DNA of 64,000 bases. Origin: an uncultured Bacteroidota bacterium. Its GTDB lineage: Bacteria > Bacteroidota > Bacteroidia > Bacteroidales > 4484-276. The stretch is taken from contig CALFEP010000082.1 in the NCBI GenBank assembly GCA_937950125.1, positions 39,446 through 103,445 on the forward strand. Reading direction: 5' to 3'. Below, piece by piece: positions 40,514 to 60,531 of the stretch. The position numbers and the translations under genes are program-made. Position 1 is the first letter of the stretch; each line of letters starts with the position of its first letter. The notes beneath the pieces were generated by a model. It saw nothing but the letters and a program-made list of their open reading frames with translations. It was not told where the DNA came from and did no database searches.

Positions 40514-41335
40514 TTACAACTCATCCCCAAACCCCGGTCGAAGCCGGGTGAAGGTATAGATTCCAAGAACAAAAAGCAAAATACTGATCATCCAAAAAAA
40601 CACATTCATTTCGGGAAACTCAAAAAACCAGCGGCGTTCAACCAGGGCGTAACGGTAACCCTCGGTGATGTAAAAAAACGGATTGAGCAGTGCGATAAAC
40701 CGAAGTTTGCTGTCACTTATCATCGTGTAGGGCCAAATGATGGGCGTTGCCCAAAACAAGATGGTGGTAAAAATATTAACAATGTGTGCCATGTCTTTGA
40801 TGAAAACATTGATGGAAGAAACAAACCATCCTATTCCCGACAACAAGAAAATGGTTGCAAACAGGTAATAAAAAATCTGTATCCAATAAATGGATGGGGC
40901 AATGTTGAAGCTAAACATCAGCAAAAGCAAAATACATCCCATCATCACCGCATGAACAATCATTCCCGAAAAAATTTTAATAATGGGGATAAGCATTACA
41001 GGAAATTGTGTTTTTTTTATCAGGTAGCCATATTCAGTAATGGCCATACACGAAACGATGATGGTCTGGCTGATGAAAAGCCAGGGAATAAGTCCGGCAA
41101 TGAGCCAGGCGCCATAGTGTATGCCCGATGATGTATATCCTGAGCGCAATCCATAGGTAAAGGCAAACCAAACCACCAAAACATACACTGCAGGTTGTAC
41201 AAAAGCCCATGGCAACCCAATGTAGGATGAAAGGTATCTGCTTTGAAAATCGCGCCAGATTAGGGTTTTCATCAGGAAGCGATTGGTAAACAAGGCCTTT
41301 ATTACTTCAAAAATATCTTTGTAAAATTTTTTCAT
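40514..41335 (-). CDS. wzm: ABC-2 type polysaccharide export permease (Wzm/TagG-like)
   Basis: 273 aa with six predicted TM helices. N-terminal 'LIWRDFQSRYLSSYIGLPWAFVQP' is typical of the ABC-2 glycan exporter family. Directly downstream of the ATPase gene. Confidence 0.9.
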   Translation of the reverse strand: MKKFYKDIFEVIKALFTNRFLMKTLIWRDFQSRYLSSYIGLPWAFVQPAVYVLVVWFAFTYGLRSGYTSSGIHYGAWLIAGLIPWLFISQTIIVSCMAITEYGYLIKKTQFPVMLIPIIKIFSGMIVHAVMMGCILLLLMFSFNIAPSIYWIQIFYYLFATIFLLSGIGWFVSSINVFIKDMAHIVNIFTTILFWATPIIWPYTMISDSKLRFIALLNPFFYITEGYRYALVERRWFFEFPEMNVFFWMISILLFVLGIYTFTRLRPGFGDEL

Positions 41336-41350
41336 TTACTGAATAGCGAA

Positions 41351-42667
41351 TTAATGGGTTAAAACACTGCCCGGTTCCAGGTTAAAAACCCGTGCATCGG
41401 GTATAACAATCTGAGTACCCATGTTGTAAACCGGCTTTGGAATATCAACCGATACGATTAACCCATCCTCCTGGGTGTAAATAAATTCGATATGGCCCTT
41501 GTTCAACTGTGTTATGGCCAGCGAAATGGTGTAATTTCCATTGGCAAGGTTTGGAAAAATAAATTCGGTGACAATGATGTTGGGCTCATCTTTCTTCAAG
41601 GTAATGGTCTGCCCGTAATGATGGGTATTGATTTTGAACAGTTCGGTGCTGAAGTGACCGTTCATGGTTAACTGAAATCCTGGCTGGACAACATTTTCAT
41701 GAGCCATGACCAGACACAAAACAAATACTTTCTGCCCTCCTCTGGCCTTTGTAATCGATTGTCGGGTATCAGCATCCACAATTGTTGCATGATAAATCTG
41801 CACCTGTCCATCGCCTTTCCACTGAAAATTGTCCAAATCAATCCAATTCAAACCTGCAAACAATGGTAATGATAAAATGCTGCTAAAGCCGTTTTTTGCT
41901 ACCGTTCCTGCTTTTTCCCTTGTGGTGTTGGTTTGCACCATAAAAGCCTGGTAACTGTCAGTTACTGTAACCGGGTTACCATCGGCCACAATTTCGCCTT
42001 TGTTTATCCAGATGGCACGTGTACAAAAGTCTTTAACAGCGCTCAGGCTATGGCTGCAAAACACAATGGTTTTGCCCGACTCCTTTATTTCTTTGATCTT
42101 GCGATAGCATTTCTGCTGAAAACGCATATCACCGACCGAAAGCGCCTCGTCGATGATCAGTATATCGGGATTGATGTTGATGTTCATCGAAAAGGCCAAA
42201 CGCACATACATTCCGCTCGAATAGCTTTTTACCGGCTGCCAGGCATACTCGCCGATGTCGGCAAAATCGAGTATGGCCCGCACACGTTCTTTCATATCCT
42301 TTTTACGAAAACCCTGCAAAGCTCCAATAAAAAAAATATTTTCCACACCCGTCATCTCTTCATTAAAACCACCTCCAAGTTCTAGCAGTGCTGTAACCCG
42401 GCCGTTGCATTTGTAAAATCCGGATGTGGGCGAAACTACCGAAGCCAGAATCTTCAGTAAGGTGGACTTGCCGCTGCCGTTGTGCCCTACCACACCAAGC
42501 ACCTCACCCTTTTCAACGGTAAAACTGACATTGTTGAGCGCATGATGCCAGGTGTGATATTTTTTACGCAAGGGATGAAAAAACTCCTTCATCCGGTCGC
42601 GGTGCGATTGATACAGCCGATAAGTTTTTGAGAGTGAATTAACTACTATTACTGATTCTGCCTGCAT
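41351..42667 (-). CDS. wzt: Polysaccharide ABC transporter ATP-binding protein with C-terminal carbohydrate-binding-type extension (Wzt-like)
   Basis: Walker A 'GVVGHNGSGKSTLLKIL', signature 'YSSGMYVRLAFS' and Walker B 'ILIIDEALSVGD'. An additional C-terminal domain of about 190 aa follows ('...VQIYHATIVDADTRQ...LANGNYTISLAI...'), as in Wzt proteins that recognise capped glycan termini. Confidence 0.9.
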   Translation of the reverse strand: MQAESVIVVNSLSKTYRLYQSHRDRMKEFFHPLRKKYHTWHHALNNVSFTVEKGEVLGVVGHNGSGKSTLLKILASVVSPTSGFYKCNGRVTALLELGGGFNEEMTGVENIFFIGALQGFRKKDMKERVRAILDFADIGEYAWQPVKSYSSGMYVRLAFSMNININPDILIIDEALSVGDMRFQQKCYRKIKEIKESGKTIVFCSHSLSAVKDFCTRAIWINKGEIVADGNPVTVTDSYQAFMVQTNTTREKAGTVAKNGFSSILSLPLFAGLNWIDLDNFQWKGDGQVQIYHATIVDADTRQSITKARGGQKVFVLCLVMAHENVVQPGFQLTMNGHFSTELFKINTHHYGQTITLKKDEPNIIVTEFIFPNLANGNYTISLAITQLNKGHIEFIYTQEDGLIVSVDIPKPVYNMGTQIVIPDARVFNLEPGSVLTH

Positions 42668-49251: not shown

Positions 49252-49289
49252 GCACAAGATTTTATGCTTGACATTAAAATATTATAGAT

Positions 49290-50670
49290 CAATCAGAAAA
49301 AATAAAAATCAGACTTTGGGAATATTGGGTAATGCAACAAATGCAAATGAGTAGAACGAGGTAAGCGAAATAATAACGATCATCAGTTTGACGAATATGG
49401 ATTTAACAGATTCGTGATTTTTGGTGAACCAAAAACCGAAAACCCCCAATATTGACAATAAATACCTCCCTTGTGGCTGAAAATCGCTGACCCAGGAGAA
49501 ATATGATGACCTGTAAATGATGAAAAATAAAAGGCTAAAAAAATCAAAGGAAGTAGCTTGATTGTGGGAAAACTATGAAGCAGTCTGAATACAACGATGA
49601 ATCCAATTAAGATTGAAATTAATAAAACATGATCTTGTAATTCAATGGATGGCTTTTGATTGACTTATAGCCAAAAACACCAAAAAATGACATAGCGGTT
49701 TTTGTGTGCCAACTCCATTTCTCCGAATACAATTCGGAATACTTAACCCCCTTCTCCTTCAGGAAAAGCCCAAAACAAGATGTTTCAAGAGTTTTTTCAG
49801 CATGTTTGAAACGGGCGTGCGCATATTTTTCCTTGAATTCGGAAATCAATAAACGCCTGTTAAATCCATGCAATTTCACATCATACAAATACCTCGGCAT
49901 CAAAAATAAAAGCGTCAACCCAATTAATGCCAGGCATTTTAGGGAAATCCTTGTCGATTCCCTTTATTATCCACTAAATACAAAAACACGATTATTGCAA
50001 AGAAGACAAGTATCAGGCAAAAATTTTTCTTTGAAAAAATCCGAAGTGCCAACAGGATTGCCATGATTACAGCGCCTTATAATATGGCCGTGGGTTTTGG
50101 GTGAAACAAGAAATTTGTTAAACGAAATGTTATCATTAACAAGCTGGTAAACAACAAGTATCGATAAAAATAAAGCGAACGCATCGGTGTTAACATACGA
50201 AAACAACTACCAGATTTGCGGAGAATTTTGCTAAACCAGTAGCAGGGGCTTTACTTTTCGGCTTCCTTTTAAAAACAGAACCATCAAACTTAAAAACAGC
50301 ACTTTGTTGAATAATCTTATGGATAGCAGCGAATCGTTGACAATGTACCCAACCAGAACCGAGAATTTTCAATTAAAAAATAACAGGGATCAAAATCCGT
50401 CAACCGTGAATGCCCGTAAGCTGAAAAACCTCCCCTGATGTCCGGATCACTTACCACCGGTGTAAGCCAATGATTTTGATACTATGTAACCGCTTCCGCC
50501 TGGACATGTTCATCGGGATGTGCATTGAACCTGCTTGTGACAGCCATCGTAATTATGAACAAAAAGATGATTAAAAAAATGGTGCTTAGTAGCACATTCA
50601 ATCCGGGATGAAGATACCGGCAAACCCGGTTTTTAATGGCAATTAATATCCTGCAGTTTTTGTATTTCAT
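49290..50670 (-). pseudogene. Frameshifted remnant of a second DUF2142-like/GT-C membrane protein gene
   Basis: The N-terminal piece (50482..50670) reads 'LLSTIFLIIFLFIITMAVTSRFNAHPDEHVQAEAV', a TM helix followed by a PDExH motif. Further hydrophobic segments continue in at least four different frames. For example, after the stop at 49619 the frame shifts to 'ISILIGFIVVFRLLHSFPTIKLLPLIFLAFYFSSF...' and then to 'LMIVIISLTSFYSFAFVALPNIPKV'. Confidence 0.5.
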
Positions 50671-52376
50671 AGTTGCCCAATTTCAGATGTTGGAAGCCTG
50701 CCTTCTTTCTTTCCATATTTTATGTAATGAACCAGTGGATTCATCCCAACTTCTTTTACATCAGGATTTTTGGCCAGATAAAATACGGAATCGAATTTTG
50801 TTGACGGATTTCTACTTTCAAAGCCTCCGTAAAGCAGAAAATGCTTTTCCGCATCCATTCCCGATTCTTTAACATCAGGATTGTTTTGCAGGTAAAAATC
50901 CACCTCAAAAAGGCTGCTTTCACCTATCAGGCGGATGTTTCTTTGCAGTGTGATTTTCTTGTTAACCCATCGGTAAAATTTAGCGGGGTGAAGCAGTGAC
51001 AAGCTTTTGGCAAAACGATAAACAGAACTGCGCTTTATAGAAACAATCTCATTTTTGAGCGCTTCAATTTTACTATTTAGTTGGCTTATTTCAATTTGAT
51101 GATGCAATGTTTTCCCAACGAAATCTTCATTGAGCCTTGTCTCCTCAAAATTCATTTGAGCAGACTCATTTTTGAGGTTCCTGGTTTTTTCCTGCCTCTG
51201 TTTAATGATTATTTCGAGTGCATCAAAAACCTTTATTCCAGTCGCCAAATATTCTGCATCTATTCCAACATGGTCAAATTCAACAGTTCCTTCGGTTTCG
51301 ATCAAAATCTGTGGGTCGGAATTTGAAAAATAATAAACCGAATTTTCGACTACACATGCATTTGAAGTGAGACGAAAATTGATAATAACCTCATTTTCGT
51401 TATCGAAAAACCTGATGGACTTTAGCTTTACAACAGCAAAATCGTTGAGCGGATCAAATCTCAGCCTCGAATAACATTGCCCAGTTGGCAATTTAAAAGG
51501 TAATGGATTATTAGAAATTTCGATACACGCCGAATTATCTTCGTTGAAGTCCCTACTTCCGGTTTGATAAAAAAGCTGTGCGAAATATTTTTTTTGGATA
51601 ACGAGGCTTTCGAGAACCTGGGTTGGTAGCAATGAAAGGGTTACCGGATATTTTTGTTTCAGGTAGTAAATGAGGTGTTTAAGCTGGTCGGATTTGAAAT
51701 TCAGCGATTTATTCAAATGGTGAACGCGGTAAAACGACAGTGGTTCCCCCGGAATAAAAGCAACCGTTCCGCCCATTTTGCCCACTCTCAGCCAGAGTTC
51801 ATAATCTTCCCATCCATAAGGTGGCATCATGTTATCATACATTCCAGCTTTTATGAGTTCGAATCTGCGGAACATGGCCATTGCATCAATGTACGGAGCT
51901 TCGAGTAGTTTCAGGTAATCGAAAGGTTGATTTGATCGCAGGCCGCAATTTTCGCCAGTTTCATGTAAAAAATTCTGAATTGAGGCATAACAAGCCATGG
52001 CTTCATGATTTTGCCTCAAGGTGGCAACATGAATCTTCAGGCAATCCTTCCGGATGTAATTATCAGAATCGAGGAAAAATAAAAATTCACCGCGGGCATT
52101 AGCAATTCCACGGTTCCGGCTTGATATCAGCCCAAGGTTGGTTTCATTTTTTATCAGCCTGACAGGGAAAGGGCTTCCTTTCATTATTTCCTCAATTACG
52201 TTAACACTTTCATCAGTGCTGGCATCATCCACAATGATTACTTCCATTTTATCGGATTCAAAATCCGAATTAATCACGCTCTGCAGGCACTGCCCGAGGT
52301 AATGGGCATAATTGTAATTGGGGATGATTACGGAAACAAGCACGCTGTCAGAAGAATTATTGGAGGTGGCAATCAT
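50667..52376 (-). CDS. GT2 glycosyltransferase + 'FNE...LRFDP' module + coiled coil + 2x 'NPDV/NPL.HY' repeats
   Basis: 'VSVIIPNYNYAHYLGQCLQSVINSDFESDKMEVIIVDDASTDES...FLDSDN'. Module at aa 265-385 ('QLFYQTGSRDFNEDNS...YSRLRFDP'). Heptad-rich aa 385-445. C-terminus 'FEVDFYLQNNPDVKESGMDAEKHFLLYGGFESRNP' and 'FDSVFYLAKNPDVKEVGMNPLVHYIKYGKKEGRLP'. Confidence 0.88.
   Translation of the reverse strand: MIATSNNSSDSVLVSVIIPNYNYAHYLGQCLQSVINSDFESDKMEVIIVDDASTDESVNVIEEIMKGSPFPVRLIKNETNLGLISSRNRGIANARGEFLFFLDSDNYIRKDCLKIHVATLRQNHEAMACYASIQNFLHETGENCGLRSNQPFDYLKLLEAPYIDAMAMFRRFELIKAGMYDNMMPPYGWEDYELWLRVGKMGGTVAFIPGEPLSFYRVHHLNKSLNFKSDQLKHLIYYLKQKYPVTLSLLPTQVLESLVIQKKYFAQLFYQTGSRDFNEDNSACIEISNNPLPFKLPTGQCYSRLRFDPLNDFAVVKLKSIRFFDNENEVIINFRLTSNACVVENSVYYFSNSDPQILIETEGTVEFDHVGIDAEYLATGIKVFDALEIIIKQRQEKTRNLKNESAQMNFEETRLNEDFVGKTLHHQIEISQLNSKIEALKNEIVSIKRSSVYRFAKSLSLLHPAKFYRWVNKKITLQRNIRLIGESSLFEVDFYLQNNPDVKESGMDAEKHFLLYGGFESRNPSTKFDSVFYLAKNPDVKEVGMNPLVHYIKYGKKEGRLPTSEIGQL
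50670..50918 (-). repeat. Two C-terminal 'NPDV/NPL.HY...EGR.P' protein repeats
   Basis: See the sequences quoted for 50667..52376. Same repeat family as 26032..26625 and 63772..64000. Confidence 0.8.
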
Positions 52377-53025
52377 AATGAAATGCTTTAAAGTCCTGGT
52401 TGTATATTTCTACAATTCTTTGTCTTGTTTTTTTCGAAATGCGGGGTATGATCTCTGTTTTGCTCAATCCTGTTGAGTTTGCTAAAGGCAAGTTTCGGTT
52501 TTGGTACCTGAAAAGGCCGTTGGTTTTATCGGCAATCAATCGGAGCAATATGTTGAAATCGGCTTTAAAATGCTCGAATCTGCCAACGAAATTAATGGTG
52601 TGATCAACAAATTTTATCTGTGGCTCTTTGTGTGAATTGTTTAAGTCGGACAACACTTCCTCACACCAAAAATCGAAATATTGCGGGTCAAAATCAGCGG
52701 GTGATAAGTATTGCTTGTTGTTTCGCCAAAAAAACTCAGAAAGCAATTTCGTGTAAGGATTTCTCACGAAAGTAAACTTGAAATAATCATCGTAATCACT
52801 GATCAGTTCTTTTAAAACCTCAACAGGATAATGCTGAGGCTCATAAACAAGCTTTGGTGAACTGGACATAATCCGGTGCTTTTCCACAAAACTTTCACAG
52901 TCTCTGTCCCATCTATCAAACCAAAAGTTCCTGGCATGGCAAAGATCAAAGAACTGCTCAATGGAGGTTCCGCCCGTTTTGGGAATATGGACAAAAAGTA
53001 TTTTCTGCTTGGGGTCGAAAGGCAA
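52357..53025 (-). CDS. Sulfotransferase-family protein (PAPS-dependent fold)
   Basis: 5'-PSB-like loop 'FVHIPKTGGTSIEQFF' and 3'-PB-like 'FVRNPYTKLLSEF'. TTG is the only start candidate at this position. The 3' end overlaps the next gene by 20 nt. Confidence 0.7.
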   Translation of the reverse strand: MPFDPKQKILFVHIPKTGGTSIEQFFDLCHARNFWFDRWDRDCESFVEKHRIMSSSPKLVYEPQHYPVEVLKELISDYDDYFKFTFVRNPYTKLLSEFFWRNNKQYLSPADFDPQYFDFWCEEVLSDLNNSHKEPQIKFVDHTINFVGRFEHFKADFNILLRLIADKTNGLFRYQNRNLPLANSTGLSKTEIIPRISKKTRQRIVEIYNQDFKAFHYDCHLQ

Positions 53026-53030
53026 AACTG

Positions 53031-53783
53031 CTATTTTATATGGTTGCGAAACAGCCTTTTCAGGTAATTTCTTTTACTAAAAAATCCGTCATTATCGTTC
53101 GTACCGAATTCATTTTTTAACCGCTCGTTTCTTATTTGCAATGCTTTCTGGTACAATGCCATATCAGTGGCGTGAAAGGATTCTATTTCCCTTTTCAACG
53201 ACTTATCCACGCAATAATGACCATCGCCGGTTCTGTGTACGTTTTCATGGTAAAGCATAAGTTCCTTACCGAAAAATTTATGGCTAAGATATTTTAAATC
53301 AGAGGAGTAATATTCGGTGATTCCGATAAAATCAAAATTTTCGAACGGAAAACCCCAGAAAAACTGCGAATAAACATTCCTGAAAATCTCACAGAGACAA
53401 TATTTTTCGAGTGACCATTTTTCATTAACAATGCGCTGCTGCAATGGTGGCGAAAGTTCGTTTATGTTTCGCAAGGTGTGGTAATAATCCGAAATAATCC
53501 GCTCAACAGGATTGCGCATCCAGGTGATAAAGGTAAGCGGTTTCAGTTCGTTGAGCAACAAAAACTGAACAGGCAAAAAATGGCCATGAATACAATCCAC
53601 GTATTCGTAATTTACCTCTGAGTTTTTAATGGCTGCAAGCAGGGCATTTTTGTTCCGCTCAAAAACAGTTCTGTTAAAAAGCCGGTCGCCGTATTTGAGT
53701 TTTAGCCGATCTCCAAAGCAATCCTTCAAGGCTAACCCGAAACTGGTACCCGCTGTTTTTGGCACGTGTACTGAAATAATCAT
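53031..53783 (-). CDS. Sulfotransferase-family protein
   Basis: 'MIISVHVPKTAGTSF' and 'WMRNPVERIISDYYH' follow the same two-motif pattern as 52357..53025. Confidence 0.7.
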   Translation of the reverse strand: MIISVHVPKTAGTSFGLALKDCFGDRLKLKYGDRLFNRTVFERNKNALLAAIKNSEVNYEYVDCIHGHFLPVQFLLLNELKPLTFITWMRNPVERIISDYYHTLRNINELSPPLQQRIVNEKWSLEKYCLCEIFRNVYSQFFWGFPFENFDFIGITEYYSSDLKYLSHKFFGKELMLYHENVHRTGDGHYCVDKSLKREIESFHATDMALYQKALQIRNERLKNEFGTNDNDGFFSKRNYLKRLFRNHIK

Positions 53784-53850
53784 CTTTTCATCTTTTCAAT
53801 TTCTTATTTTTTAAAGGCTATGATGAAGAACTACCTTTTTACTCATAGCA

Positions 53851-54630
53851 TCATGTTAAATCCCATCGAAACTTTTCACCAATAAGTTTTCTGAGTTCTC
53901 TGGCATCCTGATCAAATAATAAGGATACTTTAATTCTTGTTTCCAAGGTTAAGCCTGGATAAAAATTAGCATTTTTTGGTGTAAGTAATCCGGGAAAAAC
54001 CTCTTTTATCCCTAAAAACCGATAAACAGCATGAAGTTCATTTTCAGGATTTTTAAAAAAATCCTCGCTTTTTATAAACATCATCTGCGAAAGCGGGAAG
54101 TGTTTTAACCACCGGTTAATTTGTCTGGCGTAAAGCCCACGGCTTATGTATGAAAAGCTTTGATGTGCATCGCTCTGTTTAATCCTGCCCGATATCAGGT
54201 ATTCCTCATTTTCGGTTATCCGTTCATTTTCTTTCTCGATGGCCTTTTCAAAGTTTTCGATTATTTCGGTTTTATGCATGCGCTCATGGTGAAAATGCGA
54301 ATAAGCCCTGTCAACCGGATTTCGCAATAAAACAATGAGCTTGATTTTGGGCAGATGGTGGGCAACCCTCTGCGGCACAAGCGGGTGAAATAAATAGTAA
54401 GGACTTGCTTCACCAGCTATGGTACCCCCGAAAAGACCCTTTGACCGGAAAAACTCTTTGTACCATTTCAGACCATTTTCATAATTCAAATCAAAAAAAT
54501 GCACTTCCTTTATAGCTGGCATAAAAACCTTTGGATGTTGACTAAGATAATGGTAAAGCGTGGTTGTGCCTGCCTTTTGGGCGCCAATAATGAGGAAATC
54601 AGGAAGTTGCGAAAATCGAAAAAATGTCAT
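53851..54630 (-). CDS. Sulfotransferase-domain protein (Sulfotransfer_1-like)
   Basis: 'FLIIGAQKAGTTTLYHYLSQHP' (5'-PSB) and 'VLLRNPVDRAYSHFHH' (3'-PB). Typical size of about 260 aa. The ATG at 54630 is the second codon of the track ORF. Confidence 0.85.
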   Translation of the reverse strand: MTFFRFSQLPDFLIIGAQKAGTTTLYHYLSQHPKVFMPAIKEVHFFDLNYENGLKWYKEFFRSKGLFGGTIAGEASPYYLFHPLVPQRVAHHLPKIKLIVLLRNPVDRAYSHFHHERMHKTEIIENFEKAIEKENERITENEEYLISGRIKQSDAHQSFSYISRGLYARQINRWLKHFPLSQMMFIKSEDFFKNPENELHAVYRFLGIKEVFPGLLTPKNANFYPGLTLETRIKVSLLFDQDARELRKLIGEKFRWDLT

Positions 54631-54688
54631 CAATTAAGTTACTGCGAGCTAAATTTGGAGGAAGGTTGCCGATGGAATATTTTGTCCG

Positions 54689-55009: not shown

Positions 55010-57805
55010 TTATTTTCTCTTAAACAATGCCATCAATTTACGCAGCGGCTTTGTAATTTTCCACGATCTGCTTAGCAACACTTCATCAAGTATTTGAGCT
55101 GTTGTGGTCAATCCGGCAATTTGTTCGTCCTTTTCCCGTAAGGTTTTTTTAAGAAAATCAATATTATCCTGAATTACATTGGTTTGGCTTTCGTAAGAGG
55201 GGGCAGCAGGCTGATTGATCTCAATAAATGTCACATTAGGAAAAACATCCTTCATCGAATAAGTATAAACAGCCTTTATTTTGTAATAATTGTTTGGGTA
55301 CAAAACAACTTTTTTACCTAAAATACCAGCCAGAATGGCAATGTGAAGCCGGTCGGTTTTTACGGTTTCAAAAGCGCTCAGGTAACAGGCCAGGCTGTGG
55401 GTTACGTTTTTGGCAAAATCGGGGCGGTGCCAGAGTTCGCCATTCCACGAAAGCGAAATATCCACATTGTCAGCAGGAATAACAAACAAACCTGTACTCT
55501 CCATATCTGTCCGGAAACAGTTGGCAACACCTAAACCTTTTTGATGAAAATCCTGAAATTCGGTTTCCGGCAGCAGAAAAGCCATGTCGTGGGCAAGAAA
55601 CAGCCGTTCGGGCGGAAATCCTGCTGCAGCCAGATATTGGTAACTGATTTTTTCCCGGCAAATGATGGTCAGGTTTTTGGCCGAAAGCAACAAATCATCA
55701 TATCCGTGAACCGTGTGTGGCAACAGAATAATCTCCCGGTTTTGCCGGTAATTGTTATTGATGAAGTGAAAAGCATGCCTGTACTTTCCCTCAACCAGGT
55801 TACCCCCTCCACTGTAGAAAACAACTTTGTCCTTCACCACATCTTTGTACCCGATTACCTGAGGCCTGATGTTCAATTTTTCAAACAACTGAAAGGTAGC
55901 ATGTGCCATTATTGCATCACCTGCATTTCCCGGGTTGGCGCAATAAACAACTTCTTGTCCCGGGTATTTTTTCAGAAAATCCTCAATTATTATCTCGTTG
56001 TAGTTGAATAAATCTTTGGAATTTCCATCCATGACGGACTTTTCAGCATTTATCCTGGTAATTTTTAACGAACCGTTTGAACCATCTGCAACAAAATGAC
56101 CATTTACCTGTAACAGAAACTCATCGGTTGCCATTCTGCACCCTTCCCAATCGAAGTAATCGTCAACAATGATACTTCCGCCAGTTGACAATTTTGGAAA
56201 GATAGTTTGAAGGCAGAAAGCAACAGAATCGTACCAGTCAACATCAATGTGGGCGAAAGCGACAGGCTCATCTATTTGCATTGTGGCCCGGATAAGCCCT
56301 TTGACCAACGAAACGGAGTGCGTTTTTGGATCGATGCCAAAGGTGCTGAAATTCGATTGCACAACTTCCAGCAGGTTATCAACATATCCGTAATATTTAT
56401 CCCCGCCAATTCCATTCGATTTTCCATCCGAAATAATATTGTAACGACGGTGAACCTCTTCGGGGTCATTATCTGATGGTGGAGGTATCATCCCAAAAAC
56501 ATCATAGATGAAAAGCTTTCGATGCCGGTTCTTAACAGAAGCAATCAGTATTGATGACCCGCCAAGTGCACAACCCGCTTCAATAAACACACCTGGAATT
56601 TCTGCTTTTTCTATTTCGGAACACGTTGAAGCAATACTTTGAAGCCGTTTTCCGGAAAGATAGGTGAGATTCCGGTCATGTATTTTATTAATAAGCACTT
56701 CTATATTTTCTTTCGAGATTATTTTGGTACGGATGCCGTATTGTTGAGATTTCATTTCATTTAAAAATCGTATGACAGTATTTCTGTCTGCTGTTGGCAG
56801 ATTTGGGATAACACCATCAATAAAATCAAGCGTTTCGCTGCTCCAGACCAAAAAATCGGGTTTTAAATCCTCATTCAAAAAACTGTACTCAGGTAGCGAA
56901 AACTCCCTGCAAAGCCAATTCACATCTTCAGCGTATGCCTGCCAAACTTTACCACTCAGGCCTATTGGGAGCATGAATTTTTGTCCGGGCATTCCTTCAA
57001 AAAGTGTGTTCAATGCTATCATTCTTTCGGGATGTAGTTCATAACCCGATGTTTGCGGAAAGGTTTGGTTGATTGCATTGAGCAGAAGCACAGTTTCGTA
57101 CGTTCTGGTTTGATTGTCCCTAAAAATTTCAGGTTTGATATTTTCGGGTAAACTGCCATCGACCATCTCCAGCAAAGCGCCAGCCGGGCCAAACTTATGA
57201 AGAACAAGATCTTCGTACTTAAGCACAGTAATGTTTTCGCGACCAAAAACCCCTGAAAGCTGATTAAGCAGATTCCGGTACAAACCAGAGCGGCTAAGAT
57301 GGTAATCAGTTGCTTTTCCCATGGTCATACCAAAGTTGCAAATGCTGGCCTGCAGAGCACTCCTGAAGCGTGATACAGGATGCCGGCAAACCATGACAAT
57401 CATGATATTTGCATCGCGGGAGGTGTTTTCTAACAAAAAAGATTTCAGGTTTTCAAGTTCATGTTTGTTAAGATGAGAAATATCTTCTCCCGAAATGATC
57501 AGTGTTTCACCTTCAAAAGCTGATAATTGCTCTTCCATTTGAATGTGATAATTCTGATGAAGCTGCTGGATTGCCTGTGGGGTCGTAAAATCCTGGCTGA
57601 CATTGAAATGGTAAGTTTCGGGCTTTAGCATAAAAAGGCTGTAAAAAGGGATGGAATGGTTGCTGATGGCCGTATTGCCGACTTTGAACACGGGATATAA
57701 AACACCTTCTTCCATTAGTTTGACCCGCTCCCGGTGCAACGTGTTTTGTATGGTGGTGGAAGCGGTTTTATGCACCCCGATGTGGAGTAAAATGGTTTTA
57801 ATCAT
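55010..57805 (-). CDS. 931-aa tri-functional decoration enzyme: sulfotransferase-like domain + TylF-type O-methyltransferase + polysaccharide pyruvyl transferase + coiled-coil tail
   Basis: aa 1-310: 'LLHIGVHKTASTTIQ' and 'VMVCRHPVSRFRSA'. aa 365-585: 'GVFIEAGCALGGSS...HIDVDWYDSVAFCLQTIFPKLSTGGSIIVDDYFDWEGC' (TylF pattern). aa 600-860: 'YCANPGNAGDAIM...TDRLHIAILAGILGKKVVLYPNNYYK' (pyruvyl-transferase pattern). Tail: 'LSRSWKITKPLRKL'. Confidence 0.8.
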   Translation of the reverse strand: MIKTILLHIGVHKTASTTIQNTLHRERVKLMEEGVLYPVFKVGNTAISNHSIPFYSLFMLKPETYHFNVSQDFTTPQAIQQLHQNYHIQMEEQLSAFEGETLIISGEDISHLNKHELENLKSFLLENTSRDANIMIVMVCRHPVSRFRSALQASICNFGMTMGKATDYHLSRSGLYRNLLNQLSGVFGRENITVLKYEDLVLHKFGPAGALLEMVDGSLPENIKPEIFRDNQTRTYETVLLLNAINQTFPQTSGYELHPERMIALNTLFEGMPGQKFMLPIGLSGKVWQAYAEDVNWLCREFSLPEYSFLNEDLKPDFLVWSSETLDFIDGVIPNLPTADRNTVIRFLNEMKSQQYGIRTKIISKENIEVLINKIHDRNLTYLSGKRLQSIASTCSEIEKAEIPGVFIEAGCALGGSSILIASVKNRHRKLFIYDVFGMIPPPSDNDPEEVHRRYNIISDGKSNGIGGDKYYGYVDNLLEVVQSNFSTFGIDPKTHSVSLVKGLIRATMQIDEPVAFAHIDVDWYDSVAFCLQTIFPKLSTGGSIIVDDYFDWEGCRMATDEFLLQVNGHFVADGSNGSLKITRINAEKSVMDGNSKDLFNYNEIIIEDFLKKYPGQEVVYCANPGNAGDAIMAHATFQLFEKLNIRPQVIGYKDVVKDKVVFYSGGGNLVEGKYRHAFHFINNNYRQNREIILLPHTVHGYDDLLLSAKNLTIICREKISYQYLAAAGFPPERLFLAHDMAFLLPETEFQDFHQKGLGVANCFRTDMESTGLFVIPADNVDISLSWNGELWHRPDFAKNVTHSLACYLSAFETVKTDRLHIAILAGILGKKVVLYPNNYYKIKAVYTYSMKDVFPNVTFIEINQPAAPSYESQTNVIQDNIDFLKKTLREKDEQIAGLTTTAQILDEVLLSRSWKITKPLRKLMALFKRK

Positions 57806-57810
57806 TGGAT

Positions 57811-58710
57811 TCAGTTACCCTGATTTAAGACATTTCTGTTTTGATACTCAAGCCTGTGCGCCTGCAGCCAACTCCAAAAGCTCATTTTCCATTGGCTGCC
57901 CAGGAAAAGGTTAAACTCATGGTCGCTGGTTGGCCGGTTATCCTGCCCGCCGTTGGGGTAAATGGTTATTTCCGACAGGTAAAATTGCTGTCGGTCGGCA
58001 AAAAAATCAATCCTCAAAAAGTCAAAATCCCTTCCTAACCTTCCTGCAGCTTCAATCATTTCAGGGAGGAATGGAGGTTTTTCAGGAATTGTAGCTGGTT
58101 CTTTTTCAAAATTGTTTTTCAGATTGAATTTATTCCAGTGCGCATCAAAATACACATTTTCATTGTTTTTGCGCATCGATGATGAGCCAATGCTGATGGC
58201 TGCCACCCTCCCCCTGAAAGTAAAAAGCCTGTAATCCAATATTTCTTTCCCAGGCTCAGGTTCAATGAGTTTTTCCACAAAAACTGCCGGCGGGATATTA
58301 TTGTAAGCCCATTCGATGGGGCGGTATCTGGTTTGCAACCATAAGTGGCAGATGTCGATAACCTCGTTGGGCTTGAGTTTTTTCAGCGCCTTGTTTTCAA
58401 ATTCATAAAAACCGCTGCTGGCAACACAATTTTCGCCATTAAAAAAGTCATAAAACTGCATCCCATATTTCAGGATATTCCAGTTGCAGCCATGGTTGGC
58501 TTTGATGAAACATTTTTCGGGCAAATCGCCGAAAGGAATGGTTTCGGGGTTTTGAGTTACAAAAATCACCTCTGCCGATTTTACTCCCTTTTCTGCAGCA
58601 TATTTCTTAACAGCCAGTTTATCCTGCATCATTGTAAACAGCGGATTGTGGTCGTTTTTCATGCGCCAGCGGATTTTGGCGGCCAGAGTGAGTTTGTTGA
58701 ACAATGCCAT
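57811..58710 (-). CDS. TupA-like ATP-grasp amidoligase
   Basis: 'LAAKIRWRMKNDHNPLFTMMQDKLAVKKYAAEKGVKSAEVIFVT' and the overall 299-aa layout match the TupA-like ATP-grasp family, from memory. Confidence 0.65.
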   Translation of the reverse strand: MALFNKLTLAAKIRWRMKNDHNPLFTMMQDKLAVKKYAAEKGVKSAEVIFVTQNPETIPFGDLPEKCFIKANHGCNWNILKYGMQFYDFFNGENCVASSGFYEFENKALKKLKPNEVIDICHLWLQTRYRPIEWAYNNIPPAVFVEKLIEPEPGKEILDYRLFTFRGRVAAISIGSSSMRKNNENVYFDAHWNKFNLKNNFEKEPATIPEKPPFLPEMIEAAGRLGRDFDFLRIDFFADRQQFYLSEITIYPNGGQDNRPTSDHEFNLFLGSQWKMSFWSWLQAHRLEYQNRNVLNQGN

Positions 58711-58716
58711 TACAAT

Positions 58717-59367
58717 TTATGGGGGACTAAATTTAAATAGTTCATAATCAGTTGCAACTTCCAACAAATCGACATTTGGCCTGATATTAAACACAGCCAA
58801 AGTATCTGCTTTTTCAATTTCGGAAAGATATTTCAGCACTTCATGATAGCGTGGCCGGTTGTAAAAATCGTGGAATAGAATTTTTAAACCGGAATTTTTG
58901 TGGCAATGCAAAATTGTTTGTAAAACACTTGCAACCCTGAAACGGCCATCGATCAGCACACAATCAACTTTGGAAACATCAATTTTTTTGAAAATACCCG
59001 AAGAATAGTCGGGGAAAGAAAGCTTATGTTGTGTGTCAACAGGATAGCCCCATTCTTTGGTATTGCCAATATTTGCATAATAAATTGAAAGCCGTTTCAG
59101 TAAATGGAACCGGATAAACCAGTATTTTTTTAGTTTTCTGATCCATTCGAAATCCGATTCAACACTGTAAACCTTTGCTTTTGTGTTAGATAAGGCCAAA
59201 AATGTACTTCCACCCATTCCAAATTCCAGGTAGTAACCGGACTTTTTGATGTGCCTGACAAAAAGTTCACTTTCAACAGGCTTCATGAGCGCTTTTACAT
59301 CAGGTTTGTATGAAAATCTAACAGGTAAATGCATAACTTTTACATCAGTAAAAAAATGGTTCTGCAA
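58717..59367 (-). CDS. Putative SAM-dependent methyltransferase (small Rossmann-fold, DUF579/TylF-like)
   Basis: 'YYLEFGMGGSTFLALSNTKAKVYSVESDFEWI' and 'VDCVLIDGRFRVASVL'. The track start is a TTG; an ATG at 59334 is an alternative. Confidence 0.55.
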   Translation of the reverse strand: MQNHFFTDVKVMHLPVRFSYKPDVKALMKPVESELFVRHIKKSGYYLEFGMGGSTFLALSNTKAKVYSVESDFEWIRKLKKYWFIRFHLLKRLSIYYANIGNTKEWGYPVDTQHKLSFPDYSSGIFKKIDVSKVDCVLIDGRFRVASVLQTILHCHKNSGLKILFHDFYNRPRYHEVLKYLSEIEKADTLAVFNIRPNVDLLEVATDYELFKFSPP

Positions 59368-59525
59368 ATGGGGTAATCGTATTTCAGCATCGATAGGATG
59401 CTAATACTGGCCTTCTGACCCATCACAAAAACCAATTTGGAAATCCTCATGAAGCTCTTTATTTCCGTGGTTAGTATTTTGAACCTGATGAAAATGTTTA
59501 AATGTCCTGCTGGTCAGGATAACTT

Positions 59526-59720
59526 TTAGATAATAGTCCTGATTTGGGGAAGTGGACTGGTCAGATAACATGAATTAGAATCCATGATCTTTCTTATCAT
59601 TTCATTTGCATGGTTGAATTGATTCGCAATAGCCCGGGTTTGAATTCCGATTTCATGTGTTGACTTCTCAAGTTCAGCGATTTTTTGATTTTCGGTGACG
59701 CATTTCCTATTTTCCAGCAT
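59526..59720 (-). pseudogene. Remnant of a coiled-coil 'S.SW.IT.PLR'-type C-terminal tail
   Basis: 'ENQKIAELEKSTHEIGIQTRAIANQF...IMDSNSCYLTSPLPQIR' resembles the tails of the 931-aa protein (LSRSWKITKPLRKL) and of the first module of the 997-aa protein. No catalytic domain is attached. Confidence 0.3.
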
Positions 59721-59907
59721 GATTCGTTGATCATAACCGGCAAGAAAAAAATGAAGTTGCCATACTTTTCATCATCCGGCAGGTTTCGCCACAAGTAGTA
59801 AAGGATTTATCTGAAAGTCACAGATTCCTCACAAACCGCATGTACACCAGATGAATTGGAAATATGATAAATACCCGTGATTTCATCATGATGACAGAAT
59901 GTTGTTT

Positions 59908-60144
59908 TCATCGCTGTCGTATGAGAAAATCCCAATCTTCAAAGACATCGGACTGCTCGTCAAACCGGCATTTCAGCCTGATTAATTCACTCTGAAACAG
60001 CAATGCATGAATTGGAATAAATTTTTCAACCAACATTCTTTCAAAGATGAACCCTTCATTGTATAATTTTTTCAGATCACCGCTCAGGTTCAACGCTTTA
60101 ATCGCAAGATAGGCCACAAATGCGACGTGGTTTGGCGGGCTTGC
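59908..60144 (-). pseudogene. Remnant of the C-terminal part of a GT2 glycosyltransferase
   Basis: '...IHALLFQSELIRLKCRFDEQSDVFEDWDFLIRQR' looks like the GT2 '...FDE...(E/D)D.D(F/L)..R' block. The frame is closed by TAG just upstream, and there is no DxD or N-terminal half. Confidence 0.35.
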
Positions 60145-60531
60145 CTACCAAACCAACCCTTCATCCAGGTGATTCTTCGGTTAATCCGATGGTGTCCTGA
60201 AAGTGAAGCGCTTCGGGGCGACTGAATAATTACCTGGTATTTGAAATACAGTTGTTTACAAAAACTTGTCGATGGTATCGAAGTGAGGAATCAACCCAAA
60301 AACTGTCGTTGGCTCAAGGAATTTTGCGAATGAATCAGGTTCAAATTATTCCAGTGGGCTGGTTAACCATTTCATCCTGAAATAATGCTTATGTTGCTTT
60401 ACCCCTTCTAAAACAACATAAGAAAATGATTTTCTACTTCCCGCCCGGCAGTTCGACCTTGGGCAAAGTTAATTTATGGCTGGGGTTGTTTTTGTTGGCC
60501 TGAATGATCAGTCATAGGCTGGACATTTGTT

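What the first reader, a model, noticed from the sequence alone, without database searches (positions are those of the whole stretch)
55010..57805. One 931-aa polypeptide fusing sulfotransferase-like, TylF O-methyltransferase and pyruvyl-transferase domains with a coiled-coil tail
Three different non-glycosyl decoration chemistries appear to be fused in one protein. The motifs are quoted in the feature entry. The protein ends with a heptad-rich segment and the 'SRSWKITKPLRKL' tail.

In Wzm/Wzt pathways where Wzt has a C-terminal binding domain, chain length is set by a terminating enzyme that caps the non-reducing end. The established example is WbdD (kinase/methyltransferase plus a coiled-coil ruler) in E. 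coli O9a. This protein is a candidate capping or terminating enzyme with a chemistry (sulfate, methyl, pyruvate ketal) that, to my knowledge, has not been described for terminators.
Basis: partly seen in the sequence, partly recalled or inferred. Interest (0 to 1): 0.8.

Follow-up and report, generated by a model that had tools for sequence, protein, structure and literature searches.

The report
Three-enzyme fusion for sugar-chain decoration
One 931-residue protein of an uncultured Bacteroidales bacterium joins a sulfotransferase-like, a sugar O-methyltransferase and a pyruvyltransferase domain, and it is a plausible but unproven maker of the end-cap that the neighbouring polysaccharide exporter would recognise.

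Summary
ORF 55010-57805 (-) encodes 931 aa. Two domains pass Pfam's own cut-offs: TylF sugar O-methyltransferase (381-563) and PS_pyruv_trans (627-749).

The pyruvyltransferase domain is 42% identical to Klebsiella WbbZ, the validated terminal pyruvyltransferase of the O1b antigen, and keeps all WbbZ motifs.

The N-terminal 357 aa belong to a family with no Pfam hit above cut-off and no NCBIfam hit. It looks sulfotransferase-like: PSB-loop and RxPxxRxxS motifs, a profile hit to sulfotransferase 3rnl, and sulfotransferases at the top of the fold search.

The protein is a fusion of genes that lie adjacent but separate in related Bacteroidales loci.

The terminator reading is only partly supported:
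- For it: Wzm and a Wzt with a Wzt_C binding domain lie 12 kb downstream. One relative fuses this methyltransferase type to Wzt-Wzt_C.
- Against it: the "coiled coil" is one 33-40-residue helix. The SRSWKITKPLR tail also ends glycosyltransferases and methyltransferases in the same kind of cluster, so it looks like a shared docking tag, not a ruler.
- A terminal pyruvate cap is already known (WbbZ, 2023), and pyruvate terminators have been proposed.

Verdict: a new variant of a known kind, of moderate interest.

The parts
55010..57805 (-). Whole ORF, 931 aa plus stop codon: a fusion of a sulfotransferase-like domain, a TylF O-methyltransferase, a WbbZ-type pyruvyltransferase and a helical tail
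56735..57805 (-). Residues 1-357: sulfotransferase-like domain of a family without a Pfam hit above cut-off or any NCBIfam hit. PSB-like loop H8-x-G-x-H-K13-T-A-S-T-T. 3'-PB-like motif R141-H-P-V-S-R-F-R-S. Other invariant residues: N49, H50, S51, S105, E107, N231.
56111..56665 (-). Residues 381-565: TylF-family, metal- and SAM-dependent sugar O-methyltransferase. SAM motif E409-A-G-C-A-L-G-G. Acidic motifs D521-V-D-W-Y-D-S and D548-D549-Y.
55220..55975 (-). Residues 611-862: ketal pyruvyltransferase, 42% identical to Klebsiella WbbZ (PDB 6x1l). WbbZ motifs are present: N627-A-G-D630, R717-x-x-x-S721, H821.
55076..55195 (-). Residues 871-910: a single long helix with heptad-like pattern, the short 'coiled coil'
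55013..55072 (-). Residues 912-931: SRSWKITKPLR motif followed by a basic amphipathic end (KLMALFKRK). It is conserved in relatives and shared with other enzyme types.
57811..58710 (-). TupA-like ATP-grasp gene, 5 bp upstream of the target. It is a conserved neighbour of the N-domain gene in relatives.
58717..59367 (-). 216-aa methyltransferase-like ORF (PDB 3cvo, E 4e-21). It is fused to the N-domain in relative P0008.
50667..52376 (-). GT2 of 569 aa with a short coiled coil (424-452) and a degenerate tail motif. A homologue is present in all 15 of the 19 checked loci that were fetched through close homologues (>=50% identical) of a module of the target.
52357..54633 (-). Three stand-alone sulfotransferase genes (Sulfotransfer_2, Sulfotransfer_2, Sulfotransfer_1) directly downstream of the target
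41351..42667 (-). Wzt: ABC ATPase with a C-terminal Wzt_C carbohydrate-binding domain (residues 284-407, E 1.1e-14)
40514..41335 (-). Wzm: ABC-2 permease

Best explanation
The gene encodes a cytoplasmic enzyme that probably sits at the membrane surface. It arose by fusing three neighbouring genes.

Its three modules are:
- a divergent sulfotransferase-like domain, inferred to use PAPS;
- a TylF-type, metal- and SAM-dependent sugar O-methyltransferase;
- a WbbZ-type ketal pyruvyltransferase, which uses phosphoenolpyruvate.

A 40-residue helix and a basic amphipathic S-R-S-W-K-I-T-K-P-L-R tail follow. I infer that this tail docks the enzyme to the membrane-associated assembly complex. Glycosyltransferases and methyltransferases of the same kind of cluster carry the same tail.

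The enzyme acts on the lipid-linked glycan that the surrounding cluster of more than 50 kb builds in the cytoplasm for export by Wzm/Wzt.

The most likely target is one and the same terminal sugar, possibly added by the conserved companion GT2 (50667-52376). That sugar would receive a pyruvate ketal, an O-methyl group and probably a sulfate. For the non-reducing chain end, this cap would stop elongation and would be the mark read by the Wzt_C module of Wzt.

What is shown: domain identities, motif conservation, fusion history and gene context.

What is inferred: the donors PAPS, SAM and PEP, action on one sugar, terminal position, recognition by Wzt, and docking through the tail.

My confidence by step is about 0.85 for a multi-activity glycan-decorating fusion, about 0.75 for the N-domain being a sulfotransferase, about 0.45-0.5 for making the chain-end cap, and about 0.1-0.15 for setting chain length through its own helix as a ruler.
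For: Domains:
- Pfam TylF and PS_pyruv_trans score above their cut-offs.
- PDB sequence hits are WbbZ 6x1l at E 2e-56 and TylF-family sugar O-methyltransferases (NovP, MycF and others) at E 1e-9 to 1e-6.
- Identity to WbbZ is 42% over 250 residues.
- The WbbZ motifs NxGD, RxxxS/T and H listed in PMC10629545 are all present in the alignment.
- N-domain: profile hit to sulfotransferase 3rnl across the RxPxxRxxS region. hhalign places that motif on the RNPVDRAYS of the neighbouring Sulfotransfer_1 protein, and the N-terminal loop on the PKTGGTS of the neighbouring Sulfotransfer_2 protein. The model is confident, and sulfotransferases top the fold search. Apart from fused domains and two chance-level hits, family members hit only sulfotransferase Pfam families.

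Fusion history:
- The N-domain gene and the MT-PyrT gene, or a PyrT gene alone, are adjacent and separate in L001, L003, L004, L008-10, L096 and L097. They are fused in the window, P0002 and P0003.
- The N-domain is elsewhere fused to homologues of two other window genes, in P0008 and P0009.
- Independent fusions combine the same chemistries in other orders. P0013 is PyrT-TylF-GT-Stf0/Sulfotransfer_3. P0010, P0011, P0018 and P0019 combine PyrT and TylF, with or without a GT.

Cap context:
- The window's wzt carries Wzt_C.
- WbbZ is specific for the non-reducing terminus (PMC10629545).
- L013 has wzm, a wzt-Wzt_C-TylF fusion and a PyrT gene 750 bp downstream.

Tail:
- It is conserved and amphipathic, with a hydrophobic moment of 0.58.
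- It is shared with GT2 and MT proteins.
Against: - No extended coiled coil was found in this protein or in any of the 21 cluster ORFs scanned with a crude heptad test.
- The tail is not specific to a terminator.
- Clade membership does not prove terminal specificity. The WbbZ clade also contains enzymes that modify capsule and O-antigen repeat units (PMC10629545). In Klebsiella O1 the cap does not control chain length, and that Wzt lacks a binding module.
- The cluster encodes three more sulfotransferases, at least four more methyltransferase domains and acyltransferases. Decoration along the chain is therefore expected anyway.
- Two plain methyltransferases lie nearer to wzt and could make a simple methyl cap.
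- Co-occurrence of this cassette with wzt-Wzt_C could not be tested in relatives. No wzm or wzt lies within the +-10 kb fetched, and the Wzt scan hit other MAGs.
- The sulfotransferase call rests on sub-threshold sequence scores and low TM-scores. P-loop kinases follow closely in the fold search.
- No PAPS-synthesis genes are in the window.
Confidence: 0.5

Rival explanations
1. The enzyme decorates repeat units, not the chain end. It modifies the terminal sugar of a side branch, or a 3-linked backbone sugar, in every repeat of a heavily sulfated, methylated and pyruvylated polysaccharide. Known parallels are pyruvylation in xanthan, succinoglycan, colanic acid and many capsules. It would have no role in termination or in recognition by Wzt.
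For: - The cluster is rich in other sulfotransferases, methyltransferases and acyltransferases.
- Related loci are likewise full of sulfotransferases.
- The WbbZ clade includes enzymes that modify repeat units.
- PyrT-TylF fusions often include one glycosyltransferase, which fits a branch-adding and decorating unit.
- The tail is shared with ordinary glycosyltransferases.
- No wzt was seen near the cassette in relatives.
Against: - A Wzt with Wzt_C implies that some cap exists and must be made by a cluster enzyme (PMC10629545).
- The closest characterised homologue is specific for the terminus.
- A TylF domain of this type is fused to Wzt-Wzt_C in L013.
Confidence: 0.35
2. The protein is a WbdD-like terminator in the strict sense. 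Its own C-terminal coiled coil would act as the molecular ruler that sets chain length.
For: The layout resembles WbdD: catalytic domains first, then a heptad-like helix, then a basic C-terminal end. Wzt_C is present.
Against: - The helix has only 33-40 residues, about 5-6 nm if fully extended (my estimate). The WbdD C-terminal domain has about 250 residues.
- The same tail sits on glycosyltransferases and methyltransferases.
- Oligomerisation was not testable here.
Confidence: 0.12
3. The N-terminal domain is not a sulfotransferase but a P-loop kinase or other nucleotide-dependent transferase. The product would then carry phosphate, for example a phospho-cap or methyl-phospho-cap as in E. coli O9a, not sulfate.
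For: - Foldseek also lists P-loop kinases and zeta toxins at E 5e-4 to 1e-2.
- The loop G-V-H-K-T resembles a Walker A end.
- Pfam and NCBIfam give no hit above their cut-offs.
Against: - The RxPxxRxxS motif is typical of sulfotransferases and aligns to 3rnl and to a neighbouring Sulfotransfer_1 protein.
- All ten top fold matches are sulfotransferases.
- Family members hit only sulfotransferase Pfam models and never kinase models.
- An independent fusion, P0013, carries a recognisable Stf0/Sulfotransfer_3 domain together with PyrT and TylF.
Confidence: 0.15
4. The long ORF is an artefact, caused by a frameshift or assembly error that joined two or three separate genes.
For: In several relatives the modules are separate genes.
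Against: - Two further proteins, 59-63% identical and found on other contigs, keep the same uninterrupted architecture.
- The linker is modelled as helices and not as junk.
Confidence: 0.02

Closest known systems
WbbZ, Klebsiella pneumoniae O1 (PDB 6x1l; PMC10629545)
   Same: - Residues 611-862 are 42% identical to WbbZ over 250 residues, E 2e-56.
- The NxGD, RxxxS and H motifs are kept.
- Both belong to ABC-transporter-dependent glycan pathways.
- WbbZ adds a pyruvate ketal to the non-reducing terminal sugar.
   Different: - WbbZ is a 272-residue stand-alone enzyme with no tail.
- Its Wzt has no binding module, and its cap does not control chain length or export.
- Here the domain is fused to two other enzymes and a tail, and the cluster's Wzt has Wzt_C.
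WbdD, E. coli O9a / Klebsiella O3 (PMC3482155)
   Same: - It is a multi-activity terminator: two fused non-glycosyl chemistries, then a helical region, then a C-terminal region that recruits the polymerase.
- It works with a Wzt that carries a binding module.
   Different: - WbdD has a class I methyltransferase plus a eukaryotic-type kinase, and a C-terminal domain of about 250 residues with a long trimeric coiled coil.
- No domain is homologous to the target's.
- The target's helix has only about 40 residues.
[quoted passage not shown] 2019, Glycobiology)
   Same: Both are predicted uses of a pyruvyltransferase for chain termination in systems with a Wzt binding module. Both lack biochemical validation.
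   Different: I could not read the primary paper, so those architectures were not compared. I found no report of a sulfotransferase-like plus TylF plus pyruvyltransferase fusion.
TylF / NovP / MycF sugar O-methyltransferases (PF05711)
   Same: Residues 381-565 match at E 2.4e-23. The SAM motif and the acidic metal-binding motifs are kept.
   Different: The known members act on deoxysugars of antibiotics as stand-alone enzymes. Here the domain is embedded in a polysaccharide enzyme. Relatives fuse it to pyruvyltransferases, glycosyltransferases, asparagine synthase or Wzt.
PAPS-dependent sulfotransferases (PDB 3rnl, tyrosylprotein sulfotransferases, CurM ST, Pfam Sulfotransfer_1/2/3)
   Same: P-loop-like fold, a PSB-type loop and the RxPxxRxxS 3'-phosphate motif.
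   Different: Scores fall below the Pfam cut-offs. TM-scores are only 0.3-0.5. A helical extension of about 150 residues (200-357) has no counterpart.
ORF6 of Klebsiella O7 and WbbB of O12 (PMC11231755)
   Same: Terminator and other catalytic modules are combined in one polypeptide within an ABC-transporter pathway. Enzyme modules are distributed flexibly between proteins.
   Different: Those proteins have a long central coiled coil separating the terminator from the polymerase glycosyltransferases. The chemistry differs: methyl-phosphate and beta-Kdo.

Membership tests
PS_pyruv_trans, WbbZ/Pvg1p clade of ketal pyruvyltransferases | Significant match to the family model or to a solved member | tested here: met
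   Pfam PF04230 scores 52.7 bits against a cut-off of 25.3. PDB 6x1l matches at E 2e-56, 42% identity.
PS_pyruv_trans, WbbZ/Pvg1p clade of ketal pyruvyltransferases | Conserved motifs N29xG31D32, R121xxx(S/T) and H226 (WbbZ numbering, PMC10629545) | tested here: met
   N627-A-G-D630, R717-E-K-I-S721 and H821 align to the WbbZ motifs (alignment; motifs).
PS_pyruv_trans, WbbZ/Pvg1p clade of ketal pyruvyltransferases | PEP-dependent pyruvyl transfer to a sugar | not testable with these tools
   Needs an enzyme assay.
TylF-family sugar O-methyltransferases (PF05711) | Match above the curated cut-off, with the SAM-binding and acidic metal-binding motifs | tested here: met
   83.2 bits against a cut-off of 23. 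E409-x-G-x-x-x-G-G, D521-x-D-x-Y-x-S and D548-D549-Y align with the solved members 5i10, 4cdz and NovP.
PAPS-dependent sulfotransferases | Match to a sulfotransferase family model above its curated cut-off | tested here: not met
   Sulfotransfer_3 scores 17.7-21.3 bits against a cut-off of 27. NCBIfam gives no hit.
PAPS-dependent sulfotransferases | 5'-PSB loop (K-x-x-x-T-T type) and 3'-PB motif (RxPxxRxxS) | tested here: met
   H12 and T14 are invariant and K13 at least 90% conserved. R141 and P143 are invariant in 53 sequences. The motifs align to 3rnl and to neighbouring sulfotransferases.
PAPS-dependent sulfotransferases | Sulfotransferase fold | tested here: inconclusive
   The ten best Foldseek matches are sulfotransferases, but TM-scores are 0.3-0.5, and P-loop kinases follow at only slightly worse E-values.
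Chain terminators of ABC-transporter-dependent glycans (WbdD / WbbB type) | Encoded in a cluster with wzm and wzt | tested here: met
   Wzm lies at 40514-41335 and Wzt at 41351-42667, on the same strand and 12.3 kb downstream.
Chain terminators of ABC-transporter-dependent glycans (WbdD / WbbB type) | Wzt carries a C-terminal carbohydrate-binding module | tested here: met
   Wzt_C PF14524, residues 284-407, 55.1 bits against a cut-off of 30.4.
Chain terminators of ABC-transporter-dependent glycans (WbdD / WbbB type) | Extended coiled-coil molecular ruler in the terminator protein | tested here: not met
   There is only a 33-residue heptad-like stretch, seen as one 40-residue helix. The WbdD C-terminal domain has about 250 residues. 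My heptad scan is crude, and no dedicated coiled-coil predictor or multimer model was available.
Chain terminators of ABC-transporter-dependent glycans (WbdD / WbbB type) | Adds a residue to the non-reducing terminus, which stops polymerisation and is needed for export | not testable with these tools
   Only indirect evidence exists: the homology to WbbZ and the Wzt-Wzt_C-TylF fusion in L013.
Chain terminators of ABC-transporter-dependent glycans (WbdD / WbbB type) | C-terminal region that binds the membrane and recruits the polymerase | tested here: inconclusive
   The end is basic and amphipathic, with a hydrophobic moment of 0.58. The tail motif is shared with GT2 and MT proteins of the same kind of cluster. 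That is compatible with a common docking site but does not demonstrate one.

The most novel reading that the evidence does not exclude
The protein would be the first terminator that builds a composite cap from three chemistries. A 4,6-pyruvate ketal, an O-methyl group and an O-sulfate on one terminal hexose would block all four free hydroxyls. The Wzt_C module of Wzt would read this cap specifically.

The short helix plus S[RK]SW[KR][LI]TxP[LI]R tail would be a previously undescribed, portable tag. Through it, terminator, glycosyltransferases and methyltransferases would co-assemble at the membrane. Spacing would then come from the complex and not from a long ruler in the terminator itself.

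The N-domain would found a new sulfotransferase family.
Probability: 0.2. Interest if true: 0.75.

Novelty: new variant of a known kind. Interest (0 to 1): 0.5.

Why it matters
Capping of the chain end, read by the exporter, is how many bacteria fix the length of surface glycans. Only methyl, methyl-phosphate and Kdo caps have been shown to do this. Pyruvate has been shown as a cap that does not regulate length, and it has been proposed as a terminator.

A fused sulfate, methyl and pyruvate capper next to a Wzt with a binding module would extend that chemistry. It would also extend it into Bacteroidales, where such pathways are hardly studied.

Two by-products could be used for annotation whatever the cap question turns out to be:
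- a sulfotransferase-like family that current Pfam and NCBIfam models do not capture;
- a short C-terminal tail shared by different enzyme types of one cluster, which may mark members of one assembly complex.

Tried and rejected
- NCBIfam gave no hit for the whole protein or for the N-domain.
- Co-occurrence of the cassette with a Wzt_C-bearing transporter could not be tested in relatives. None of the 18 PyrT- or N-domain-anchored loci fetched through the target or its homologues has wzm or wzt within the +-10 kb fetched. L013 does, but it was fetched through the Wzt-TylF fusion itself. A genome scan with the window's Wzt returned other MAGs than those carrying the cassette. Only weak TylF-like matches lay near Wzt, in L109 and L114. 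This does not show absence. The clusters exceed 50 kb and the contigs are short.
- The key census paper (Mann et al. 2019, Glycobiology) and the 2020 JBC review are not held. I therefore could not check whether sulfotransferase-type terminators were already predicted there. A full-text search for sulfotransferase, Wzt, chain termination and coiled-coil found nothing relevant.
- In the combined alignment A3 the N-domain rows show lower identity to the query (45/41/43% against 61/59/61% in A2), which may mean they are partly misaligned. In the full-length model, residues 230-360 have low confidence. For the N-domain I rely on the separate model.
- The 50%-identity representative library showed no other three-domain protein among its best 150 hits. 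The triple fusion is known only from P0001-P0003.
- I looked for a long coiled coil elsewhere in the cluster with a crude heptad scan. Only stretches of about 20-30 residues came up, the only other one followed by a tail-like motif being in the GT2 of 569 aa.
- The artefact reading (frameshift or misassembly) was rejected because independent full-length homologues exist.
- My first estimate of about 50% identity to WbbZ was corrected to 42% by counting.


Full report
**1. The observation**

ORF 55010..57805 on the minus strand starts with ATG and encodes 931 aa. The identical protein is in the public collection as P0001.

Pfam results for the whole protein:
- TylF, residues 381-563, E 2.4e-23, 83 bits against a cut-off of 23.
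- PS_pyruv_trans, residues 627-749, E 7.8e-14, 52.7 bits against a cut-off of 25.3.
- Methyltransf_24, just above its cut-off.
- Sulfotransfer_3, residues 134-216, E 0.0046, below its cut-off.

NCBIfam gives nothing. The third needed more work.

**2. The pyruvyltransferase domain**

- Residues 611-862 match PDB 6x1l, "WbbZ protein", at E 2e-56. Counted from that alignment, 104 of 250 residues are identical, which is 42%.
- WbbZ is the Klebsiella pneumoniae enzyme that adds a pyruvate to the non-reducing end of the O1 antigen, giving glycoform O1b. This was shown in vitro and in vivo (PMC10629545).
- That paper lists the conserved motifs N29xG31D32, R121xxx(S/T) and H226. In the alignment they correspond to N627-A-G-D630, R717-E-K-I-S721 and H821 of the target.
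- The same paper places enzymes that modify capsule and O-antigen repeat units in the same clade as WbbZ.
- It also reports that in Klebsiella O1 the cap does not set chain length and that the Wzt there has no binding module.

**3. The methyltransferase domain**

- Residues 381-565 match solved TylF-family sugar O-methyltransferases at E 1e-9 to 1e-6. These include NovP, MycF and 5i10/4cdz.
- The SAM motif (E409-A-G-C-A-L-G-G) and the acidic motifs (D521-V-D-W-Y-D-S and D548-D549-Y) are aligned to them.

**4. The N-terminal domain**

A search with residues 1-357 found 65 proteins. Most are stand-alone "hypothetical proteins" of 380-420 aa with no precomputed Pfam hit.

In a 53-sequence alignment:
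- The invariant residues are H12, T14, Q20, N49, H50, S51, F58, S105, E107, R141, P143 and N231.
- K13 is conserved in at least 90% of sequences.

Evidence for a sulfotransferase:
- The family profile hits the Alicyclobacillus sulfotransferase 3rnl (E 4.7e-7) across the RxPxxRxxS region. It also hits CurM sulfotransferase weakly.
- hhalign puts that region on the RNPVDRAYS of the neighbouring Sulfotransfer_1 protein. It puts the N-terminal loop on the PKTGGTS of the neighbouring Sulfotransfer_2 protein. Both alignments are weak, but they agree.
- The AlphaFold2 model is confident, with pLDDT 93.6 and pTM 0.89.
- Its ten best Foldseek matches in the PDB are all sulfotransferases: tyrosylprotein sulfotransferases and 3rnl (E 1e-5 to 5e-4); cytosolic SULTs follow at ranks 13-18. 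TM-scores are only 0.3-0.5, and P-loop kinases follow closely.
- Each family member was scanned against Pfam on its own. Apart from fused domains and two single-member chance-level hits (Tektin, SlyX), the only families hit are Sulfotransfer_3 (8 members), Sulfotransfer_1 (3) and Sulfotransfer_4 (1). No kinase family appears.

I rate "sulfotransferase" at about 0.75 and treat a kinase-like activity as the rival.

**5. The tail**

- A crude heptad scan marks residues 876-908.
- The full-length model has pLDDT 84 and pTM 0.45, which means three independently placed domains. It shows one helix at 871-910, then short helices at 913-917 and 919-930.
- The last 17 residues are strongly amphipathic and basic, with a hydrophobic moment of 0.58.
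- The tail and its S[RK]SW[KR][LI]TxP[LI]R motif are conserved in all 28 close homologues that extend that far.
- The same ending also occurs on other enzyme types of the same kind of cluster. In L011 it ends a Methyltransf_24 protein (474 aa) and a GT2 (470 aa). In L004 it ends a 292-aa ORF.
- In this window there is an internal copy in the 1011-aa glycosyltransferase (36305-36334). There is a degenerate copy after a 29-residue heptad stretch in the 569-aa GT2. A decayed copy lies in the gap at 59526-59720.
- None of the 21 ORFs of the cluster that I scanned has a long heptad region.
- For comparison, the C-terminal domain of WbdD spans residues 460-708 (PMC3482155).

I conclude that the tail is a portable docking or membrane tag and not a terminator-specific ruler.

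**6. Fusion history and context**

The source is an uncultured Bacteroidales bacterium:
- ThrRS is 78% identical to Bacteroidales MAGs.
- The cassette's relatives are in Bacteroidales, Bacteroidetes and Lentimicrobiaceae MAGs.

The modules occur in several arrangements:
- Fully fused: the window, P0002, and P0003 (L011 and L012).
- N-domain gene followed by an MT-PyrT gene: L008-L010, and L001, where the N-domain is also fused to a homologue of the window's 216-aa ORF.
- N-domain gene followed by a PyrT gene with no methyltransferase: L003, L004, L096 and L097. In L096 the two genes overlap by 4 bp.
- PyrT gene alone: L002, L005, L094 and L095.

Conserved neighbours:
- A TupA-like ATP-grasp gene is a conserved neighbour.
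- A homologue of the 569-aa GT2 is in all 15 of the 19 checked loci that were fetched through close homologues (>=50% identical) of a module of the target.
- The 216-aa ORF is methyltransferase-like (PDB 3cvo, E 4e-21).

Independent fusions combine the same chemistries in other orders:
- P0013 is PyrT-TylF-GT-Stf0/Sulfotransfer_3.
- P0010 is GT-PyrT-TylF-MT.
- P0011 is PyrT-GT8-TylF.
- P0018 is PyrT-TylF.
- P0019 is TylF-MT-PyrT.

P0016 (L013) is Wzt-Wzt_C fused to a TylF domain 46% identical to the target's. Wzm lies upstream and a pyruvyltransferase gene of another clade lies 750 bp downstream.

In the 1.84-billion-protein representative library the three domains have thousands of relatives (8,943 at E <= 0.001). 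No other triple fusion appears among the best 150.

**7. The cluster in the window**

From about 11.8 kb to beyond 64 kb, almost everything on the minus strand is polysaccharide synthesis:
- RgpF-type and multi-domain GT2/GT4 enzymes.
- An MBOAT plus AlgX-like pair and an Acyl_transf_3 protein.
- An MT-GT2 gene followed by a DUF2142 gene.
- Two methyltransferases.
- A membrane protein.
- Wzt with Wzt_C (E 1.1e-14) and Wzm.
- Three stand-alone sulfotransferases directly downstream of the target.

No PAPS-synthesis gene is in the window.

**8. Interpretation**

Shown:
- A genuine three-domain decorating enzyme made by gene fusion.
- The domains recur together across lineages.
- It lies in an ABC-transporter-dependent cluster whose Wzt has a binding module.

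Inferred: the three domains act on one sugar, that sugar is the non-reducing end, and Wzt reads the product.

The recurrent fusion of pyruvyltransferase, TylF and sulfotransferase, often with one glycosyltransferase, argues for joint action on one substructure. A 4,6-ketal needs a sugar with O4 and O6 free. That means a terminal sugar, either of the chain or of a side branch, or a residue linked through O2 or O3. The evidence cannot separate a chain-end cap (about 0.45-0.5) from decoration of every repeat (about 0.35).

A ruler role for the protein's own helix is unlikely (about 0.12).

**9. Novelty**

- Multi-activity terminators are known (WbdD, ORF6 of O7, WbbB).
- Terminal pyruvate is known (WbbZ).
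- Pyruvate terminators have been proposed.

New here:
- The triple fusion with a sulfotransferase-like family that Pfam and NCBIfam do not capture.
- Its occurrence in Bacteroidales.
- The shared tail.

I class it as a new variant of a known kind, with interest 0.5. One caveat applies: I could not read the 2019 census of terminator chemistries.

Noticed in passing
window 37293-40457 (-): A type IIG restriction-modification fusion (HSDR_N, Eco57I, N6_Mtase, TaqI_C domains) sits between wzm and the 1011-aa glycosyltransferase. In the Lentimicrobiaceae locus L098 the order is wzt, wzm, then homologues of the 1011-aa and 1177-aa glycosyltransferases with nothing between. The RM gene therefore looks like an insertion into the polysaccharide cluster.
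   Followed up: partly
window 59400-60530 (-): This 1.1-kb gap between the 216-aa ORF and the 1154-aa glycosyltransferase holds only short ORFs. They look like remnants of a GT2 ('EDWDFLIR') with a coiled coil and a decayed tail motif ('DSNSCYLTSPLP', 59526-59720). It is probably a pseudogene of another tail-bearing glycosyltransferase.
   Followed up: partly
window 49258-50666: A 1.4-kb stretch between the MT-GT2 gene and the 569-aa GT2 has no ORF above 120 aa. It holds only small hydrophobic fragments on both strands. It may be a decayed gene or a regulatory spacer.
   Followed up: no
window 50667-52376, 60532-63996, 23125-26922 (all -): A repeat of about 32 aa, of the form 'FDxxFYLxxNPDVxxxGxNPLxHYxxxGxxEG', occurs at the C-terminus of the 569-aa GT2, twice at the N-terminus of the 1154-aa glycosyltransferase and near the N-terminus of the 1265-aa RgpF-GT4-GT2 protein. 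It may be another shared interaction or localisation module.
   Followed up: partly
window 45830-49257 (-): A methyltransferase-GT2 fusion (470 aa) is followed by a DUF2142 membrane protein (690 aa). The pair resembles the polyprenol-phosphate-sugar synthase plus GT-C-like transferase used for adding side sugars outside the cytoplasm (compare PMC11127046, seen only by title and abstract).
   Followed up: no
window 44337-45829 (-): Two class I SAM methyltransferases (250 aa and 248 aa) lie two to three genes upstream of wzt. They are rival candidates for a simple methyl cap. My heptad scan found no coiled coil in them.
   Followed up: partly
L013 4117-6174: In a metagenomic contig the Wzt ATPase, its Wzt_C module and a TylF methyltransferase form one 685-aa protein (P0016). 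The exporter itself would then carry a candidate capping enzyme. I have not seen this arrangement described.
   Followed up: partly
P0013 (870 aa, metagenomic): This is an independent fusion of PS_pyruv_trans, TylF, a GT2/GT7C glycosyltransferase and a Stf0/Sulfotransfer_3 sulfotransferase. It has the same three chemistries as the target, but in a different order and with a recognisable sulfotransferase.
   Followed up: partly
window 57811-58710 (-) and loci L008, L131, L132: A TupA-like ATP-grasp ligase is a constant neighbour of the N-domain and pyruvyltransferase genes. It might amidate a carboxylate, either the pyruvate ketal or a uronic acid, with an amino acid. This is speculation.
   Followed up: no
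window 30665-34198 (-) and 29478-30578 (-): The 1177-aa double-GT2 protein begins with a FemAB/GNAT-like domain (residues 136-285). The 366-aa ORF downstream has no family hit. This hints at aminoacyl or acyl transfer onto the glycan.
   Followed up: no
window 18013-20642 (-): An MBOAT protein and an AlgX-like SGNH protein lie next to each other. The pair is typical of polysaccharide O-acetylation across the membrane.
   Followed up: no
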